Below, in pieces: positions 16,514-52,355 of a stretch of 64,000 nt of DNA. A program made the position numbers and the translations under genes. Under the pieces are notes generated by a model. That model searched no databases and was not told the origin of the DNA. It worked only from the letters and a program-made list of their open reading frames with translations. The stretch lies in the NCBI GenBank assembly GCA_031374105.1, contig JANMNP010000073.1, forward strand, positions 671 through 64,670, read 5' to 3'. Numbering within the stretch: the stretch's first letter is position 1; each line of letters starts with the position of its first letter. The stretch is from Novosphingobium sp. Its GTDB lineage: Bacteria > Pseudomonadota > Alphaproteobacteria > Sphingomonadales > Sphingomonadaceae.

Positions 16514-17094
16514 GGCCTCCGCGCGGATTGAGCGCGGGCGAAGCGGCGCTGTGGGCAAGGGTCGCGCAGACGGTTCGTCCGCTAAATCCTTCCCGCGCCG
16601 GGGAGGGGGACCATGCGAAGCATGGTGGTGGGGCGCGTGCGGTAGTCGTGACGGCGATAGAGCAGGATCACTCGCCTGTGCCCCTCCACCACCTGCGGTG
16701 GTCCCCCTCCCCCAAGGGGGAGGATCGGAAACCCCAGACTCTCGATCGCCACGGCCTCGACAACTCATGGGAGCGCAAACTTGCCAAGGCAGCGATTGCG
16801 CCCGATTTCACGCTCGATCTGCATGGGTATGGTCTGGATGCAGCGCATAGTCGGCTCGATCATGGGCTGTCGCTCGCGCTTGCGCAGGGCGCGCGGATGG
16901 TGCTGGTGATCACTGGCCGTCCTCGTCCGGTTGATCCGGCGGATCGCGGTTCGCGGCGCGGGGCGATCAGGGCCAAGCTGCTCGATTGGCTCGCAGCAGG
17001 TCCGCATGGCTCGCGGATCGCTGCGGTGCGCCAGGCGCATCCTCGACATGGCGGGGCGGGGGCGGTTTATGTGGTGCTGCGCAAGACGCGCTAG
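16510..17094 (+). CDS. Smr-domain protein carrying an in-frame 46-codon repeat-element insertion
   Basis: The C-terminal Smr domain is present ([20 protein letters not shown]...[12 protein letters not shown]...). A TTG start overlaps the mltA stop. Residues [13 protein letters not shown]...[15 protein letters not shown] are the translation of the repeat element at 16587-16724. Confidence 0.8.
16587..16724. mobile_element. miniature (cargo-less) copy of the GGGGAGGGGGACC / GGTCCCCCTCCCC inverted-arm element, 138 bp
   Basis: The outer ends are TCCTTCCC (16587-16594) and GGGGGAGGA (16716-16724). The left arm is GGGGAGGGGGACCATGCGAAGCATGGTGGTGGGG (16600-16633). The right arm is CCCCTCCACCACCTGCGGTGGTCCCCCTCCCC (16681-16712). 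The architecture matches the copies at 48497-48621 and 51295-51762. Confidence 0.8.
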
Positions 17095-29292: not shown

Positions 29293-29474
29293 TTGACTCA
29301 CTTCCCTCTTCTCCGTCGAGGAAGGGGGGCCTCTTCCCCGTCGGGGAAGGCGGGTGGACTCACTGCTCCCTTCCCCGTCAGGGAAGGGTTGGGGATGGGG
29401 GTACAAGGTCGAGGGCGTGCGCGTCGATGCGGCTGTAGAGCCCCCACCCCTAACCCCTCCCCGACGGGGAGGGG
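29293..29474. repeat. cluster of REP-like GC-hairpins
   Basis: Three hairpins are present: CTTCCCC-gtc-GGGGAAG (29333-29349), CCCTTCCC-cgtca-GGGAAGGG (29368-29388) and CCCCTCCCC-gac-GGGGAGGGG (29454-29474). Two diverged tandem units start G(T/G)GACTCACT (29293, 29354). The cluster fills the gap between convergent genes. Confidence 0.8.
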
Positions 29475-29511
29475 GATTCGATCGGTTCCAATAATTGATA
29501 TCTGGTATGAG

Positions 29512-47813: not shown

Positions 47814-48491
47814 ATGTTTGAAGAAGTACTGGTGCTGCGCTGGTTCCACATTATCGCCATGGTCTATTGGCTGGGCGGCGAATGGGGGGTGTTCCAGACG
47901 AGCTACAATGTGGTCAACCGCAAGCTTTCGCTCGATGAACGGCGGCGGCATATGGAAACCGCCTATCGGATCGATATTCTGGCGCGAACCGGGATTATCC
48001 TGCTGCTGCCGCTGGGACTGCACATGGGCTTTATCTATGGATTGCAGCCCTATGGCGGCGGCTACCTGACAGTCATGTGGTTGGCGGTGGCGGCGTGGAT
48101 GGCGTTGTGCTGGGCCGCGTTCATCAAGCGGGAGAGCGACCTTGGCCTCAAACTGACCAAGCTTGACGAGCGCATCCGCTTCATCCTGATCCCGACGATC
48201 TTCGTGGTCGGCATATCCTCGCTGATGGGTAACGGCCCGTTCGAGGCGAGCGAAGGAACCCGCTGGTATGCCTGGAAGTTCACGCTTTATGGCTTTGCCT
48301 TGTGCATCGGGCTTGGCCTACGATTCATCATGCGGGCCTGGACCACGCGGTTCCGCCAGCTGGCCGAAGGGCCGAATCCTGCAGCCGAAGCCGCGCTGGA
48401 GCGTGAGATCGGCTATGGCCGGGCGATGGCCTATGTCTACTGGATCACCATTTCCGGGATCTGCTTCCTTGGCACAGTGAAGCCGATTTGA
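47814..48491 (+). CDS. integral membrane protein, unknown function (HemJ/CopD-like N-terminal motif by eye)
   Basis: About six TM segments. The N-terminal sequence LRWFHIIAMVYWLGGEWG recalls the H-I-I-A..W.GG motif of HemJ/CopD-type proteins. This is weak and from memory only. Confidence 0.65.
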   Translation: MFEEVLVLRWFHIIAMVYWLGGEWGVFQTSYNVVNRKLSLDERRRHMETAYRIDILARTGIILLLPLGLHMGFIYGLQPYGGGYLTVMWLAVAAWMALCWAAFIKRESDLGLKLTKLDERIRFILIPTIFVVGISSLMGNGPFEASEGTRWYAWKFTLYGFALCIGLGLRFIMRAWTTRFRQLAEGPNPAAEAALEREIGYGRAMAYVYWITISGICFLGTVKPI

Positions 48492-48496
48492 GGCTT

Positions 48497-48621
48497 TCCT
48501 CCCTGAGCTTTGCTCGGGGAGGGGGACCATGCGCAGCATGGTGGAGGGGTATTGGGCAACTGTGGAATACCCCTCCACCAACCTTCGGGCGGTCCCCCTC
48601 CCCAAACAGGTTTGGGGAGGA
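48497..48621. mobile_element. miniature (cargo-less) copy of the inverted-arm element, 125 bp
   Basis: The outer ends are TCCTCCC (48497-48503) and GGGGAGGA (48614-48621). The left arm is GGGGAGGGGGACCATGCGCAGCATGGTGGAGGGG and the right arm is CCCCTCCACCAACCTTCGGGCGGTCCCCCTCCCC. The element fills the whole gap between two convergent stop codons. Confidence 0.8.
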
Positions 48622-48626
48622 TCACA

Positions 48627-49205
48627 TCACTTCTGAATCTGGTTCATCTCGATCAGGATGCCATCGGGATCGAAGAAGTTGCAGCCCCGAACCCGGATCG
48701 GCGGACCGCCATTGCGCCCGGCATACTCCTGCATCCGCGCCTCGGCAGTAAAGGTCACCCCTGGGATTGATCTGGCCCGCTCGCAGCGGCCATCGACGTC
48801 ATCGGTGTTCATCACGATCACCACCCCGCCCGGCCCCATGCGCTTGGGATAAACGCCCGGATCGGCCAGCGGCGGCGTGGTCCATTCCATCAGCCCGACC
48901 CAGCCAACCCAGGGGTCATTGGCGTTTAGCAGCACCAGTCGCGCTTTGGCCCCCGGCAGTCCGGCGGGCAGCGCCACCCCGCTGGTTTCGACCACCGCAT
49001 CATAGTTGACCTTCATCCCCACCACATCGCGGTAGAGCTTCAGGCTGTTTTCCATGTTGCGGACGATCAGCGTGACCCGCCGGACATCGGTGGGCAGGCG
49101 CTCGGCCGGTGCGGTGACTCCTGGTGCTGCCGGGGCGGTGGACACGTTTTCGGCATTGGCGCAACTGCTCAGCAGCAGGGCGATCAGGGGAACGGCATTC
49201 TTCAT
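48627..49205 (-). CDS. exported VOC-family lipoprotein
   Basis: The lipobox is LIALLLSSC. The VOC pattern follows (RRVTLIVRNMENSLKLYRDVVGM ... FDPDGILIEM). This is the last gene of the minus-strand operon. Confidence 0.75.
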   Translation of the reverse strand: MKNAVPLIALLLSSCANAENVSTAPAAPGVTAPAERLPTDVRRVTLIVRNMENSLKLYRDVVGMKVNYDAVVETSGVALPAGLPGAKARLVLLNANDPWVGWVGLMEWTTPPLADPGVYPKRMGPGGVVIVMNTDDVDGRCERARSIPGVTFTAEARMQEYAGRNGGPPIRVRGCNFFDPDGILIEMNQIQK

Positions 49206-50383: not shown

Positions 50384-51291
50384 CGTGCCAGCCTTTCGTG
50401 ATAGTCCAGCATCGGCCCGGCATCGGGGGTGAAGCCATACAGCGGCTCACCCGGCAGAGCCGCTTCCAGGATTTTGCGCACTTCCAGCAGCCGGTCCAGA
50501 TCAATCCCGGTTTCAAGCCCCATGGCATTGAGCATCAGCACCAGATCCTCGGTCACCAGATTGCCCGAAGCGCCCGGCGCATAGGGGCACCCGCCCAATC
50601 CGCCGAGCGAGGCATCAAGCGTGGTGATCCCCTCATTCAGCCCCGCCAGTGCATTAGCAAGGCCCAGGCCACGGGTGTTGTGGAGGTGCAGCGTGGTAAG
50701 CTTGTCTCCCACCGCGCCGCGCACCTTGCGGATCAGCCGTTTGACCTGCGCGGGATCGGCATAGCCGGTGGTGTCTGACAGGCTGAATTCCTGCGCCCCA
50801 GCCTCGGCAGCAGCAGCGGCAAGGCGCACCACTTGTTCCTCGCTTACTGCGCCCTCAATAGTGCAGCCAAAGGCGGTCGATAGCCCCACCGCGAAATGGA
50901 CCCCTGCGGCTGCTGCGATCTGCGCCACCGCCGCGATCTCGGCCAGCATCGCGGGATGGTCCATCCGGACATTGCGCAGCGAGTGGGTTTCGCTCATCGA
51001 AAAGGGAATGCTCATTCCGTGAACTCCTGCCTTCACCGCCCGCGCCGCGCCTTTGGCATTGGGAACCAGCGCCACGACGTTAAGTCCGGGAATCTCCCGC
51101 GCAAAGGCGACCAGTTCGGGCGTGTCGGCCATCTGCGGCAACAGGCTGGCCGGCACGAAGCTGCCCACCTCAATCTCCGGCACGCCCGCCGCAGCCTCTG
51201 CCGCGATCCACGCTTTCTTGGCCTCCAGCGGCATCACCCGGCTGATCGATTGCAACCCGTCACGCGGGCCGACTTCGGAAATGAGGATCAT
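50380..51291 (-). CDS. hydroxymethylglutaryl-CoA lyase-like (DRE-TIM metallolyase)
   Basis: The motifs EVGPRDGLQ, LHLHNTRGLGLANALAG and GGLGGCPYAPGASGN are HMGL-like signatures. The start ATG overlaps the stop of the upstream chimeric ORF (ATGA). Confidence 0.92.
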   Translation of the reverse strand: MILISEVGPRDGLQSISRVMPLEAKKAWIAAEAAAGVPEIEVGSFVPASLLPQMADTPELVAFAREIPGLNVVALVPNAKGAARAVKAGVHGMSIPFSMSETHSLRNVRMDHPAMLAEIAAVAQIAAAAGVHFAVGLSTAFGCTIEGAVSEEQVVRLAAAAAEAGAQEFSLSDTTGYADPAQVKRLIRKVRGAVGDKLTTLHLHNTRGLGLANALAGLNEGITTLDASLGGLGGCPYAPGASGNLVTEDLVLMLNAMGLETGIDLDRLLEVRKILEAALPGEPLYGFTPDAGPMLDYHERLAR

Positions 51292-51674
51292 AGTTCCTCT
51301 CCAATCACGGATTGGGGAGGGGGACCGTCCGAAGGACGGTGGTGGGGTATGCGGCTGCTCGCCGCAGCAACGATCCGCTCCACTACACTTTCCATATTCC
51401 TCATCACGTCAGTCGCCCCAATCCGCAAAGTCGCGACACCAGCCTTGGCCATGAACGCATCGCGTGCCAGATCGTGCGCGGGATTATCACCCATATCATG
51501 CGCAATTCCATCAACCTCAATGCAAAGTCTGGCGGCTGCGCAGTAGAAGTCGAGCACGAATCGGTCTGCCGGATGCTGCCGACGGAATTTCAGTCCGCCC
51601 GGCCGTTTTCGCAGTTCGGTCCATAGCATCGCCTCGGGCATCGACATTGATCGGCGGAGTGACCGGGCGCGCAT
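51288..51674 (-). CDS. DUF559 (Vsr/restriction-endonuclease-like fold) protein, internal ATG at 51674
   Basis: 128 aa. MPEAMLWTELRKRPGGLKFRRQHPADRFVLDFYCAAARLCIEVDGIAHD...D..RDAFMAKAGVATLRI matches the DUF559 pattern as I remember it. The C-terminal PHHRPSDGPPPQSVIGEEL is a translation of the element arm. Confidence 0.8.
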   Translation of the reverse strand: MRARSLRRSMSMPEAMLWTELRKRPGGLKFRRQHPADRFVLDFYCAAARLCIEVDGIAHDMGDNPAHDLARDAFMAKAGVATLRIGATDVMRNMESVVERIVAAASSRIPHHRPSDGPPPQSVIGEEL

Positions 51675-52355
51675 TACGGAAGAGTTGGTGCGGGGGGGGA
51701 GGCGGGATACCCCTCCACCGCTCTTCGAGCGGTCCCCCTCCCCAGCCTGCGGCTGGGGAGGATTGAGATATACCCATGGTCGCAGCTGCCTGTCTGCTGC
51801 GGTCCATACGGCGATGGCTTGGCCGGATTTGAGGGTCAGGTCGATCACATCCAGCCCTTCGAGCAGCATGGCTTTCGCCTCTGCGTCCAGGGTAAAGTGA
51901 TAGGCTTCAGCACCGGCGCGCACCTCTTGCGCGGCAAGATCGACGGTGACGATCTGCCACTGCATCGCTGCAATCGCAGCGCGCGGCAGTTCAACAGGCA
52001 ACAACCCGTTGCGAATGCAATTGGCGCGAAAGATTGGGGCGAAGCTCTCCGCGACGATGCAGGTGATGCCATATTCCCTGAGCGCCCAGACCGCGTGTTC
52101 ACGGCTCGATCCGCAGCCGAAATTTGCCCCGCCCAGCAACAGGCTGGCACCCGCGGCATCGCGCTGGTTGAGCGCAAAGGCGGGGTCGGCGATCCGCTGA
52201 TCGGCATTGCTGTAGCGCCATGGAGCGAACAGACCGTCCGCCAGCCCAGTCCTCCCGGTGGAGCGCATTTCGCGGCTGGGGATGATCGTGTCGGTATCGA
52301 TGTTGTCGAGCAACAGCGGCACCGCGACTGAGGTGAGGGTGGTGAAGGGGGTCAT
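51288..52355 (-). CDS. LeuD-like aconitase-family small subunit (homology 51765-52355) whose frame runs on without a stop through the inserted element to 51288
   Basis: The first 197 aa carry the LeuD pattern (DNIDTDTIIP, GANFGCGSSREHAVWAL, GITCIVAESFAPIF..N). After ...RPWVYL the frame continues into the arm translation (NPPQPQAGEGDRSKSGGG) and the DUF559 ORF, giving 355 codons in total. Confidence 0.8.
   Translation of the reverse strand: MTPFTTLTSVAVPLLLDNIDTDTIIPSREMRSTGRTGLADGLFAPWRYSNADQRIADPAFALNQRDAAGASLLLGGANFGCGSSREHAVWALREYGITCIVAESFAPIFRANCIRNGLLPVELPRAAIAAMQWQIVTVDLAAQEVRAGAEAYHFTLDAEAKAMLLEGLDVIDLTLKSGQAIAVWTAADRQLRPWVYLNPPQPQAGEGDRSKSGGGVSRLPPRTNSSVMRARSLRRSMSMPEAMLWTELRKRPGGLKFRRQHPADRFVLDFYCAAARLCIEVDGIAHDMGDNPAHDLARDAFMAKAGVATLRIGATDVMRNMESVVERIVAAASSRIPHHRPSDGPPPQSVIGEEL
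51295..51762. mobile_element. full-length inverted-arm element carrying a DUF559/Vsr-like endonuclease ORF (~468 bp)
   Basis: The outer ends are TCCTCTCC (51295-51302) and GGGGAGGA (51755-51762). One arm is GGGGAGGGGGACCGTCCGAAGGACGGTGGTGGGG (51314-51347). The other arm is CCCCTCCACCGCTCTTCGAGCGGTCCCCCTCCCC (51710-51743). The DUF559-like ORF lies between the arms. Confidence 0.7.

What the first reader, a model, noticed from the sequence alone, without database searches (positions are those of the whole stretch)
48497..48621. Second miniature copy; compensatory base changes between copies preserve arm hairpins
This 125-bp copy fills the whole gap between two convergent stop codons (48491 and 48627). 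Comparing the three copies shows that the hairpin embedded in each arm covaries.
- **Left arms:** ACCATGC-gaa-GCATGGT (16.6 kb), ACCATGC-gca-GCATGGT (48.5 kb) and ACCGTCC-gaa-GGACGGT (51.3 kb).
- **Right arms:** ACCACC-tgc-GGTGGT (16.6 kb) and ACCGCTC-ttc-GAGCGGT (51.7 kb).

The invariant flanks GGGGAGGGGGACC / GGTGGNGGGG and the terminal CCTCCCC-loop-GGGGAGG hairpins are retained. Covariation implies selection on secondary structure in DNA or RNA, not merely recent copying. The terminal GGGGAGGA is also Shine-Dalgarno-like.
Basis: seen in the sequence. Interest (0 to 1): 0.62.

Follow-up and report, generated by a model that had tools for sequence, protein, structure and literature searches.

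The report
Hairpin-looped palindromic DNA repeat copy
This 125-base stretch is one copy of a widespread bacterial DNA repeat whose small hairpins keep their pairing while their letters change freely, in a pattern that points to folding of the DNA itself (probably a triple-helix-type fold) rather than of an RNA.

Summary
Window 48497-48621 is a 125-bp palindromic element lying 5 nt from each of two convergent stop codons.

**Covariation.** It is strong in a larger sample. In 184 arms from 120 genomes, fixed only by their flanks, there are 107 different hairpin inserts with 90% Watson-Crick pairing (31% when shuffled). A formal pair count gives 99.4% paired, with 0 of 500 shuffles as high.

**What the hairpins look like:**
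- 85% carry a GNA triloop on a C:G closing pair, the known extra-stable DNA mini-hairpin.
- G·T outnumbers A·C 45:1 on the G-rich strand of both arms.
- Hairpin quality does not depend on the direction of neighbouring genes.
- No T-tract follows the element.

I therefore read the constraint as acting on DNA, not RNA.

**Architecture.** Each half is CCTCCCC-hairpin-GGGGAGG-hairpin-GGAGGGG. This is the block order of BoxC/PIT/TMECO intrastrand-triplex repeats, with the two loops replaced by variable mini-hairpins. That reading is inferred, not shown.

**Turnover.** Strains of the same species carry only a 28-bp solo hairpin at this site. A gene tree favours one insertion of the ~100-bp core into that older hairpin.

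**Verdict.** New variant of a known kind; interest moderate to high.

The parts
48497..48621 (.). Whole 125-bp miniature palindromic element (TCCTCCC...GGGGAGGA)
   Evidence: It is absent, apart from a 28-bp solo hairpin, in same-species contigs L121 and L123.
48498..48522 (+). Left terminal hairpin T1: CCTCCC-TGAGCTTTGCTC-GGGGAGG. The tip TGAGCTTTGCTC arrived with the core.
   Evidence: The empty-site alignment places the left junction right after TCCTCCC.
48516..48549 (+). Left arm: GGGGAGG (block R1), then GGG, then hairpin ACC-ATGC-GCA-GCAT-GGT, then GGAGGGG (block R2, the mirror image of R1)
48526..48542 (+). Left arm hairpin hp1: 7 base pairs with a GCA triloop closed by C:G
   Evidence: The orthologue L122 has CTCC-GCA-GGAG here, which is two fully compensated pair swaps.
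48550..48569 (.). Variable centre (TATTGGGCAACTGTGGAATA), the loop of the central stem
   Evidence: Centres are 17-96 nt long in 52 miniature copies.
48570..48603 (-). Right arm. Read on the - strand it is GGGGAGGGGGACC-GCCCGAAGGTT-GGTGGAGGGG.
48577..48593 (-). Right arm hairpin hp2. It has a GAA triloop on the - strand and is imperfect in this copy (one G.T and one C.T).
   Evidence: It is perfect (ACCC-AAA-GGGT) in the orthologue L122.
48597..48620 (.). Right terminal hairpin T2: CCTCCCC-AAACAGGTTT-GGGGAGG. With the left TCCTCCC it corresponds to the older solo hairpin.
   Evidence: Solo form TCCTCCCC-AAACAAGTTT-GGGGAGGA in L121 and L123, and in an outgroup species (L145-L147), at the same stop codon.
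47814..48491 (+). Upstream neighbour: 225-aa membrane protein (faint DUF2269 hits in relatives), stop TGA at 48489-48491
48627..49205 (-). Convergent neighbour: VOC/glyoxalase-family protein, stop at 48627-48629
16587..16724 (.). Sister miniature copy, in frame inside an Smr-domain gene
51294..51762 (.). Long sister copy: the same arms around a DUF559 (Vsr-like nuclease) reading frame on the - strand

Best explanation
**What it is.** The stretch is a non-autonomous miniature copy of a modular palindromic DNA repeat family. The family is common in Sphingomonadales and Caulobacterales, and is also found in some Hyphomicrobiales and Clostridia contigs. Its long form carries a DUF559 (Vsr-like) nuclease gene.

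**Anatomy.** Each half has three conserved 7-nt blocks on one strand:
- CCTCCCC
- GGGGAGG
- GGAGGGG, the mirror image of GGGGAGG

Two linkers join the blocks. Their sequence is free, but they must be self-complementary and are usually capped by a GNA triloop on a C:G pair.

**Level of the constraint.** It acts on folded DNA: the G-rich strand of the left half and the opposite strand of the right half.

**Likely fold (inferred).** Each half most plausibly forms an intrastrand purine-motif triplex of the BoxC/PIT/TMECO kind. CCTCCCC pairs with GGGGAGG, and GGAGGGG lies in the groove. The mini-hairpins act as compact loops, leaving an effective loop of 3-5 nt.

**History of this copy.** The ~100-bp core entered an older 28-bp solo hairpin that sat just after the stop codon, with CCTCCC(C) repeated at both junctions. 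The core then diverged quickly.

**Shown:** the architecture, the covariation, the strand bias, the loop identity, the within-species presence/absence and the 3'-end location.

**Inferred:** triplex folding, the role of the DUF559 nuclease, and the insertion mechanism.
For: **Covariation**
- 184 arms, 107 distinct inserts, 90% Watson-Crick pairing against 31% shuffled.
- Formal count: 99.4% paired, covariation score 0.509 against 0.152, 0 of 500 shuffles as high.
- Terminal hairpins: CCTCCC lies upstream of 181 of 184 arms; 117 distinct tips; 88% Watson-Crick against 49% shuffled.
- The pairing is local, not arm-to-arm. Left and right tips differ in 54 of 56 elements, and their identity is no better than for random pairs of arms.

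**DNA signature**
- GNA triloops in 156 of 184 arms, nearly always closed by C:G.
- Among distinct odd-length inserts, 79 of 90 have GNA and 0 of 90 have TNC.
- GCGNAGC-type mini-hairpins are extraordinarily stable as DNA and much weaker as RNA (PMC13037366).
- A C:G closing pair adds about 2-3 kcal/mol (PMC3201870).
- G.T 45 against A.C 1 on the G-rich strand of both arms; 38 against 1 among distinct inserts.
- Hairpin quality is the same whether the outer gene reads towards the arm or away from it.
- As RNA, the local-hairpin folds are 10-17 kcal/mol worse than one long hairpin. As DNA they are within 3.6 kcal/mol, before any GNA bonus.

**Triplex blocks**
- The order C-stem, loop, G-stem, loop, G-stem matches TMECO, which NMR showed to be a triplex. 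Purine-motif triplexes do not form in RNA (PMC4666352).
- A second arm type (TGGCAG-hairpin-CTGAC) shares only the three blocks.
- The free letter in GGTGGNGGGG is A 181 times, T 11 times and C once. A and T are the two letters the purine motif allows opposite an A:T pair.
- A short-loop motif of TMECO type lies at 29366-29478 in the same window.

**Turnover**
- Solo-hairpin alleles occur at 97.8% flank identity.
- The same solo hairpin is present in an outgroup species.
- In the gene tree the full form is confined to one subclade.
- The core differs at 13 positions in about 105 bp, against 1.7% in the flanks.

**Nuclease link**
- The long forms hold DUF559 frames.
- E. coli ycjD (DUF559) has a strict TMECO 168 nt downstream.
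Against: - No experiment shows that these sequences fold in cells. Holder et al. found no in vivo DMS protection even for TMECO.
- The mirror relation of the two G blocks is partly forced by my search pattern. It is also partly forced by ordinary pairing of GGAGGGG with the partner arm across the centre, so it is weak independent evidence for a triplex.
- The G tracts could instead form a quadruplex.
- Paired changes could arise from block replacement between copies, or from self-templated repair of quasi-palindromes, rather than from selection on each pair.
- Insertion rather than deletion rests on parsimony over a tree whose outgroup order is unresolved.
- The window comes from a metagenome-assembled genome, and contigs break in these repeats.
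Confidence: 0.7

Rival explanations
1. **RNA-level element.** Transcripts from the two convergent genes each run into the G-rich half first. The hairpins act as a two-way terminator or as a 3' stabiliser against exonucleases, as REP/BIME sequences do in E. coli. Selection on that RNA structure gives the covariation.
For: - Copies lie mostly at gene 3' ends: tandem 25, convergent 14, divergent 1. Stop codons are 1-12 nt away in 42% of ends that face a gene's 3' end.
- A transcript entering from either side would carry the G-rich sense of the nearer half, so the two-fold symmetry alone does not exclude RNA.
- The RNA fold is very stable: -88.9 kcal/mol, z = -7.5.
Against: - No T-tract follows any hairpin.
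- Loops are GNA triloops rather than the GNRA or UNCG tetraloops typical of selected RNA hairpins. The RNA versions of mini-hairpins melt far lower.
- Arms whose outer gene reads away are as well formed as arms whose outer gene reads in: 87.6% against 90.4% Watson-Crick, p = 0.35.
- As full-length RNA the arm tips face each other in an internal loop and need not self-pair.
- Copies also sit inside coding genes and around a nuclease gene.
- PIT/BoxC repeats had no terminator activity in E. coli.
- No RNA data exist for this organism.
Confidence: 0.12
2. **No structural selection.** The paired changes are a by-product of how palindromes mutate and are repaired. One route is template switching within the hairpin, which copies a change from one stem side to the other. 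Another is short-patch gene conversion, which swaps whole hairpin cassettes between the many copies that share identical flanks.
For: - The orthologous copies of the window and L122 differ by two complete pair swaps in hp1, and by 13 changes in about 105 bp, at only 1.7% flank divergence. This looks more like block replacement than stepwise change.
- All copies share exact 10-13-nt anchors on both sides of each hairpin.
- Quasi-palindrome correction is an established mutational route (established knowledge, not tested here).
Against: - A purely mutational process has no reason to keep a GNA loop on one strand only (79 GNA against 0 TNC).
- It has no reason to tolerate G.T but not A.C on that same strand (45:1).
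- It has no reason to keep the C:G closing pair.
- Conversion moves diversity around but does not create 107 different paired inserts.
- The solo hairpin tip is identical across species whose membrane-protein sequences are only 87% identical, so tips are not intrinsically hypermutable.
Confidence: 0.13
3. **Double-stranded protein-binding site.** The conserved blocks are binding sites for a dimeric regulator or nucleoid protein. The palindromic layout only mirrors the symmetry of that protein.
For: - Strict conservation of 7-13-nt blocks with two-fold symmetry across orders.
- Intergenic location.
Against: - A protein that reads duplex DNA gives no reason for the spacers between its sites to be self-complementary, with a strand-specific wobble bias and triloops.
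- Spacer lengths vary from 7 to 21 nt, which would rotate the sites around the helix.
- Copies occur inside genes and are present or absent between strains.
Confidence: 0.05

Closest known systems
BoxC / PIT elements / TMECO intrastrand-triplex repeats (Bergler 1992; Hoyne and Maher 2000; Holder et al. 2015, PMC4666352)
   Same: - G/C-rich block order on one strand: C-stem, loop, G-stem, loop, G-stem.
- A or T in the third block opposite the A:T pair.
- Intergenic location.
- Often found as inverted ('palindromic') pairs.
- Strain-to-strain loss that leaves a hairpin behind.
- Even the GGGGACC tail after the G block is shared with the E. coli copy next to ycjD.
   Different: - Stems are 7 nt (CCTCCCC/GGGGAGG/GGAGGGG), not 9 nt.
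- The strict TMECO pattern is absent from the window.
- Both loops are replaced by variable, self-complementary mini-hairpins of 5-21 nt. The ITxF search, which allows loops of 1-6 nt, would therefore miss them.
- The family has a long form with a DUF559 gene, whereas Holder et al. found no mobility genes near TMECO.
REPIN-RAYT systems (REP doublets plus a REP-associated tyrosine transposase)
   Same: - Short hairpin-forming repeats in inverted pairs.
- Many non-coding copies plus a few copies that flank a small enzyme gene.
- Location at gene 3' ends.
- The hairpin is read on one DNA strand.
   Different: - No GTAG head sequence.
- The flanked gene is a PD-(D/E)XK/Vsr-like DUF559 nuclease, not a Y1/HUH transposase.
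- Each half has two hairpins joined by conserved purine and pyrimidine blocks.
DNA mini-hairpins d(GCGNAGC) (Hirao, Yoshizawa and co-workers; PMC13037366, PMC3201870)
   Same: The arm and terminal hairpins are capped by the same C-GNA-G motif. GCGAAGC itself is the whole insert in 14 arms.
   Different: Natural mini-hairpins are known at single sites such as phage origins, the ssiA primase-recognition signal for primer synthesis on plasmid RSF1010, and phage N4 promoters. Here they are a repeated building block of a dispersed genomic element.
Rickettsia palindromic elements (RPE) and other bacterial MITEs (Delihas 2007, PMC2229807)
   Same: - 100-150-bp palindromic repeats.
- Tolerated in frame inside genes. 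48 of 50 miniature copies have at least two of six frames free of stops, and all have at least one.
- No transposase of their own.
   Different: - Unrelated sequence.
- Modular skeleton with hypervariable hairpins.
- No TA ends and no clear target duplication beyond the CCTCCC(C) repeat that is part of the hairpin.
Caulobacter CcrM-associated intergenic repeats (CIR; Chen and Shapiro 2003, as summarised in PMC2229807)
   Same: Alphaproteobacterial intergenic repeats of about 110 bp with two stem-loop arms.
   Different: - CIRs carry a conserved GANTC site and have stops in all six frames.
- Here GANTC occurs in only 9 of 50 copies and most frames are open.
- The original paper was not available to compare sequences.

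Membership tests
BoxC/PIT/TMECO intrastrand triplex motif | Three consecutive blocks on one strand (C-stem, G-stem, second G-stem) compatible with G*G:C, A*A:T and T*A:T triads | tested here: met
   The blocks are CCTCCC(C) at 48498-48503, GGGGAGG at 48516-48522 and GGAGGGG at 48543-48549, mirrored on the - strand. The free letter in the third block is A or T in 192 of 193 arms.
BoxC/PIT/TMECO intrastrand triplex motif | Strict TMECO pattern CCCTCNCCC N3-6 GGGNGAGGG N3 GGGNGAGGG | tested here: not met
   No match in the window. The positive control gives one match beside E. coli ycjD.
BoxC/PIT/TMECO intrastrand triplex motif | Short loops (1-6 nt in the ITxF search) | tested here: not met
   Loop 1 is 12 nt. 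Loop 2 is GGG plus a 17-nt hairpin. If the hairpin is closed, the effective loop is 3 nt; this is inference.
BoxC/PIT/TMECO intrastrand triplex motif | Forms a triplex in vitro (CD, NMR, melting) | not testable with these tools
   It needs oligonucleotide biophysics. The nearest-neighbour folding used here has no triplex term.
BoxC/PIT/TMECO intrastrand triplex motif | Higher variability between closely related strains, with hairpin-leaving deletions at palindromic pairs | tested here: met
   Full and solo-hairpin alleles occur at 97.8-98.3% flank identity.
REPIN-RAYT | Associated single-copy Y1/HUH (RAYT) transposase flanked by the repeats | tested here: not met
   The gene between the arms is DUF559/Vsr-like (PF04480, E = 1e-25). 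The rest of the genome could not be searched.
REPIN-RAYT | REP hairpin with a conserved 5' GTAG-type head | tested here: not met
   The ends read (A/T)TCCTCCCC.
Classical MITE (deletion derivative of an insertion sequence) | Terminal inverted repeats plus a target-site duplication, and a parent that encodes a transposase | tested here: inconclusive
   Inverted ends are present, and CCTCCC(C) is repeated at both junctions of the core. That repeat is part of the hairpin, and the parent encodes a nuclease that is not a known transposase.
Intrinsic (Rho-independent) terminator | G+C-rich hairpin directly followed by a T/U tract | tested here: not met
   No terminator-like site lies in 48492-48626 on either strand. 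The tails are TCACATC and AAAGCC.
CIR (CcrM-associated intergenic repeat) | Conserved GANTC site; stop codons in all six frames; never inside genes | tested here: not met
   GANTC occurs in 9 of 50 miniature copies. Every copy has at least one open frame, and most have 4-6. One copy lies in frame in the Smr gene.
DNA mini-hairpin (GNA triloop on a C:G pair) | Loop G-N-A closed by 5'-C...G-3' | tested here: met
   149 of 167 odd-length arms have C-GNA-G. hp1 here is C-GCA-G, and hp2 is C-GAA-G on the - strand.
Any curated RNA family (Rfam 15) | Match at the family's gathering score | tested here: not met
   No match in the window at gathering scores. Only weak microRNA-precursor look-alikes appear, at 20-36 bits against cut-offs of 58-137 bits. 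These are typical of any long hairpin.

The most novel reading that the evidence does not exclude
The variable mini-hairpins are exchangeable loop cassettes of a DNA triplex that the family's own DUF559 (Vsr-like) nuclease recognises and nicks. Nick-initiated very-short-patch resynthesis, templated either by the opposite stem side or by another copy, would both create the perfectly paired diversity and drive copying of the core into solo CCTCCCC-tip-GGGGAGG hairpins elsewhere. This would be a structure-guided, transposase-free way for DNA to spread. It would also give DUF559 and the 30-year-old BoxC/PIT repeats a function.
Probability: 0.12. Interest if true: 0.85.

Novelty: new variant of a known kind. 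Interest (0 to 1): 0.62.

Why it matters
- **A natural experiment on non-B DNA.** Hundreds of copies keep a fixed skeleton while four hairpins per copy vary freely yet stay paired, with loop and wobble signatures specific to one DNA strand. That is unusually clean comparative evidence that a non-B DNA fold is under constraint in living bacteria. For BoxC/PIT repeats this question has stayed open since the 1990s.
- **Wider reach for triplex-type repeats.** It extends them to Alphaproteobacteria in a form that existing triplex finders cannot see.
- **A view of turnover.** It shows the element being gained at a pre-existing solo hairpin within one species.
- **A testable partner enzyme.** Together with the DUF559 long form, it makes one idea directly testable: a Vsr-like nuclease may be the partner enzyme of these repeats.
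- **Annotation.** The elements are open in most reading frames and can supply Shine-Dalgarno-like ends, so they can extend or fuse gene calls.

Tried and rejected
- **Whole-genome tools.** I could not collect the window genome's own copies, count them or look for other enzymes. I used one pattern scan of genome contigs instead. That scan fixes the arm flanks by design.
- **RNA evidence.** Only metagenomic DNA runs hold this stretch. Laying contigs showed only that assemblies break in the arms and that the arms are massively repeated in the community.
- **Rfam.** Nothing at gathering scores. At permissive settings only weak microRNA-precursor look-alikes appeared. I rejected these as generic hairpin matches.
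- **Terminator reading.** Rejected because there is no T-tract.
- **CIR membership.** Rejected on GANTC content and open frames. The original CIR paper is not held.
- **Literature search by sequence.** Only unrelated eukaryotic and viral primer hits. Searches for sphingomonad MITE/REP papers and for DUF559 mobile elements found no description of this family.
- **Gene calling.** A first caller based on codon-position G+C gave many shadow genes at 60% G+C, and a first flank classifier built on the codon-usage model was biased by design. I kept the codon-usage model and re-ran it as a caller over whole loci.
- **One tip from the element, one from the target.** I tested this in 12 metagenome copies of the same centre subfamily. 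All four tips vary, so the test was uninformative.
- **Proximal versus distal arm in tandem contexts.** A slight trend appeared with mis-parsed arms. It vanished with strict parsing.
Full report
**1. The observation**

Window 48497-48621 reads TCCTCCC-TGAGCTTTGCTC-GGGGAGGGGGACC-ATGCGCAGCAT-GGTGGAGGGG-TATTGGGCAACTGTGGAATA-CCCCTCCACC-AACCTTCGGGC-GGTCCCCCTCCCC-AAACAGGTTT-GGGGAGGA.

- It lies between the TGA of a 225-aa membrane-protein gene (48489-48491) and the stop of a convergent VOC/glyoxalase gene (48627-48629). Five nt are left on each side.
About two matches are expected even with two mismatches allowed.
- The repeat finder recovers the same families.
It is imperfect here and perfect in the orthologous copy of a sister strain.
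- The long copy at 51.3 kb carries a DUF559 frame (PF04480, E = 1e-25). The 16.6-kb copy lies in frame in an Smr gene. Both had been followed up by earlier agents.

**2. Does the covariation hold in a larger sample?**

I therefore scanned one genome per species with GGGGAGGGGGACC-N(5-20)-GGTGGNGGGG, leaving the insert free. These were mostly Sphingomonadales and Caulobacterales, with some Hyphomicrobiales and a few Clostridia contigs.

Arm hairpins:
- Together with the window there are 184 arms and 107 different inserts of 7-21 nt.
- 90% of symmetric positions are Watson-Crick pairs, against 31% after shuffling each insert (maximum 36% in 1000 shuffles).
- A formal count on the 47 distinct 34-nt arms gives 99.4% of cells paired (81.5% shuffled) and a covariation score of 0.509 (0.152 shuffled), with 0 of 500 shuffles as high. 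Registers slid by 1-3 columns give only 26-65% paired. All four variable pairs change on both sides.

Terminal hairpins:
- CCTCCC lies within 40 nt upstream of 181 of 184 arms.
- There are 117 distinct tips.
- 88% are Watson-Crick, against 49% for shuffles scored with the same optimising procedure.

The pairing is local:
- In 54 of 56 complete elements the left and right arm inserts differ.
- Only 16 of 56 have equal length.
- Their stem identity (0.49) is no higher than for random pairs of arms (0.60).

So the signal is not simply that of an inverted repeat.

**3. DNA or RNA?**

Five observations point to DNA.
- **Loop identity.** The loop is G-N-A in 156 of 184 arms (GAA 94, GCA 41, GGA 11, GTA 10) and is almost always closed by 5'-C...G-3'. 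Among distinct odd-length inserts there are 79 GNA loops and no TNC loops. GCGNAGC-type mini-hairpins are extraordinarily stable as DNA. Their RNA versions melt tens of degrees lower, and a C:G closing pair adds about 2-3 kcal/mol (PMC13037366 and PMC3201870). Selected RNA hairpins would be expected to favour GNRA or UNCG tetraloops, which are rare here.
- **Wobble bias.** On the G-rich strand of each arm, G.T mismatches outnumber A.C 45 to 1 (38 to 1 among distinct inserts). A G.T on one strand is an A.C on the other. One strand is therefore the constrained one, and it is the top strand for the left arm and the bottom strand for the right arm.
- **Transcription direction.** Arms whose outer neighbour reads inwards and arms whose neighbour reads away are equally well formed: 90.4% against 87.6% Watson-Crick, and 87% against 83% GNA, not significant.
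- **Folding energies.** As a full-length RNA the element prefers a single long hairpin (-88.9 kcal/mol) in which the arm tips merely face each other. Folds with local arm hairpins are 10-17 kcal/mol worse. With DNA parameters the four-way fold is within 3.6 kcal/mol of the optimum, before any bonus for GNA loops.
- **No terminator signature.** No T-tract follows any hairpin.

No RNA sequencing exists for this organism, which is a metagenome-assembled genome from freshwater sediment. An RNA role is therefore unlikely but not directly excluded. In particular, convergent transcripts would each meet the G-rich half first.

**4. What the skeleton is**

I read the source paper (Holder et al. 2015, PMC4666352).

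- TMECO is C-stem, loop of 3-6, G-stem, loop of 3, G-stem. NMR showed it to be an intrastrand purine-motif triplex.
- It is intergenic and often occurs as inverted pairs.
- It shows no promoter or terminator activity.
- It is unusually variable between strains, with deletions at palindromic pairs that leave a hairpin.
- The paper also notes that purine-motif triplexes do not form in RNA.

Each half of the present element has the same order: CCTCCCC, tip, GGGGAGG, then GGG plus the ACC...GGT hairpin, then GGAGGGG. The last block is the mirror image of the middle one. That is what an antiparallel third strand needs (G*G:C, A*A:T).

Supporting points:
- The free letter in that block is A 181 times, T 11 times and C once. 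A and T are the two letters the motif allows there.
- A second arm type, found as the partner of many 'orphan' arms, reads GGGGAGG-TGG-CAG...hairpin...CTG-AC-GGAGGGG. It shares only the three blocks, again with a C-GNA-G hairpin in between.
- If the hairpins are closed, the effective second loop is 3-5 nt, as in TMECO.
- On this reading the 'invariant flanks' are the functional blocks. The covarying hairpins are loops that must stay compact. This also explains why only the block-bearing strand shows the wobble and loop bias.
- The same window holds a short-loop pair of the classical type at 29366-29478 (CCCCTCCCC-GTC-GGGGAGGGG-TTA-GGGGTGGGG on the - strand).

Limits on this reading:
- The strict TMECO pattern is absent from the window. 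It matches once, 168 nt downstream of E. coli ycjD, a DUF559 gene.
- The triplex itself is inferred. The mirror relation is partly imposed by my search pattern and by ordinary pairing across the centre.
- A quadruplex is a possible competitor.

**5. Gain and loss at this very site**

Contigs encoding the same or nearly the same membrane protein show two states.
- L122 and L124 carry the full element.
- L121 and L123, whose flanks are 95-98% identical to the window, carry only TCCTCCCC-AAACAAGTTT-GGGGAGGA.

The alignment puts the gained or lost segment between TCCTCCC and CAAAC. CCTCCC(C) is repeated at both junctions. The right terminal hairpin therefore corresponds to the solo hairpin, and the left tip TGAGCTTTGCTC belongs to the core.

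The wider comparison:
- An outgroup species (87% protein identity; L145-L147) has the same solo hairpin directly after the stop.
- Other relatives have no hairpin (L125, L129, L130, L144) or a different solo hairpin (L128, L148).
- In a tree of the gene, the full form is confined to (window, (L122, L124)) with 89/92 support. That group is sister to the solo pair inside a 100/100 clade.
- One insertion of the core into an older solo hairpin is therefore the most parsimonious history. Repeated hairpin-stimulated deletion between the 7-bp repeats cannot be excluded.

Divergence since then:
- The window and L122 cores have come to differ at 13 positions in about 105 bp, against 1.7% in 5 kb of flank.
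- Almost all differences are in the tips and the centre.
- They include two complete pair swaps in hp1 (ATGC/GCAT against CTCC/GGAG).
- This is either compensatory change or replacement from another copy.
- Tips are not intrinsically hypermutable, because the solo tip is identical across species.

**6. Where copies sit**

I used a codon-usage gene caller trained on the loci.
- Paired elements lie between tandem genes 25 times, convergent genes 14 times and divergent genes once, and inside a called gene 8 times. Gene pairs without elements number 355, 116 and 110 for the three arrangements.
- Of 165 scorable ends, 107 face a gene's 3' end. In 42% of those the stop codon is 1-12 nt away, and in 10% the frame runs into the element.
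- Of 58 ends that face a 5' end, 10 have a start codon within 15 nt of the terminal GGAGG, so the end can serve as a ribosome-binding site. The HMG-lyase-like gene at 51291 is an example.
- Short bacterial gaps make 'fills the whole gap' partly trivial. The avoidance of divergent promoter regions is real.
- Miniature copies are 117-185 bp long. 48 of 50 have at least two of six frames without stops, and all have at least one. This explains in-frame survival.

**7. Comparison with known families, and verdict**

- **Closest.** In design and behaviour the element is closest to BoxC/PIT/TMECO repeats, but it fails their strict pattern and loop limits.
- **REPIN-RAYT.** The layout resembles REPIN-RAYT, but with a different enzyme and no GTAG head.
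- **RPE.** It behaves like RPEs in being tolerated inside genes.
- **CIR.** It is not a CIR as described.
- **Rfam.** It matches no Rfam family.
- **Literature.** Eight searches found no description of this alphaproteobacterial family. The library lacks many subscription papers, so absence is not proof.

I rate it a new variant of a known kind. The finding as stated is confirmed and sharpened. The mechanism (triplex folding, nuclease partner, insertion into solo hairpins) remains to be shown.

Noticed in passing
window 29366-29478: An intergenic pair of short-loop motifs of the classical BoxC/TMECO type in inverted orientation. One is CTCCCTTCCCC-GTC-AGGGAAGGG-TT-GGGGATGGGGG on the + strand. 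The other is CCCCTCCCC-GTC-GGGGAGGGG-TTA-GGGGTGGGG on the - strand. Where the C-stem has TT, the G-stems have AA and AT, as triplex rules would allow. More CTTCCCC/GGGGAAG hairpins lie just upstream (29301-29349).
   Followed up: partly
L004, L006, L025, L031, L046, L050, L058, L077 and others: A second arm type, GGGGAGG-TGGCAG-hairpin-CTGAC-GGAGGGG, pairs with the GGGACC-type arm in many elements. It explains most of the 84 'orphan' arms. The two types share only the three 7-nt blocks.
   Followed up: partly
L003, L015, L040, L054, L072, L080, L081; plasmid hit H24 (Vescimonas fastidiosa): The same 34-36-nt arm with its terminal hairpin (GCCTCCCC-TGAAA-GGGGAGG...) occurs in Clostridia contigs. 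Some have A+T-richer flanks and a response-regulator gene start next to it. The arm is followed there by different right halves (AGCTCCCCTTTCAGGGGAGC hairpins). Cross-phylum spread or contamination was not resolved.
   Followed up: partly
L143 (E. coli MG1655 1351030-1351840): Downstream of ycjD (DUF559) lie a strict TMECO (L143 2206-2240) and a partial one at the ycjD stop (about 2396-2425). There is also a second copy of the ycjD 3' end (gaatattctccagcaccgtctcc at 2338-2360 and 2441-2463). This suggests a decayed duplicate cassette.
   Followed up: partly
window 51288-51300: The left end of the long DUF559 copy (GGAGAGGAA on the - strand) lies 3 nt before the ATG of the HMG-lyase-like gene. 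The leuD-like frame reads through the whole element and stops in an ATGA overlap with that start.
   Followed up: no
L128 3176-3215 and L148 2176-2215: Relatives that lack the VOC gene carry a different solo hairpin (TTCCTGCC-GATCACAGAT-GGGGAGGAA) directly after the same membrane-protein stop codon. This hints that this stop is a recurrent landing or retention site.
   Followed up: no
window 48488-48607 in runs X1-X4: Contigs of the source sediment metagenomes end inside the arms. Summed word depth over the arms reaches thousands, against about 10-30 in the flanks. The arms are therefore among the most repeated sequences in these communities, and assemblies (this window included) are at risk of breaks or chimeras there.
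   Followed up: partly
plasmid records H1-H24: The element matches 100 places in 24 Sphingomonas, Sphingobium or Novosphingobium replicons, up to 13 per record. No annotated feature lies under any match.
   Followed up: no
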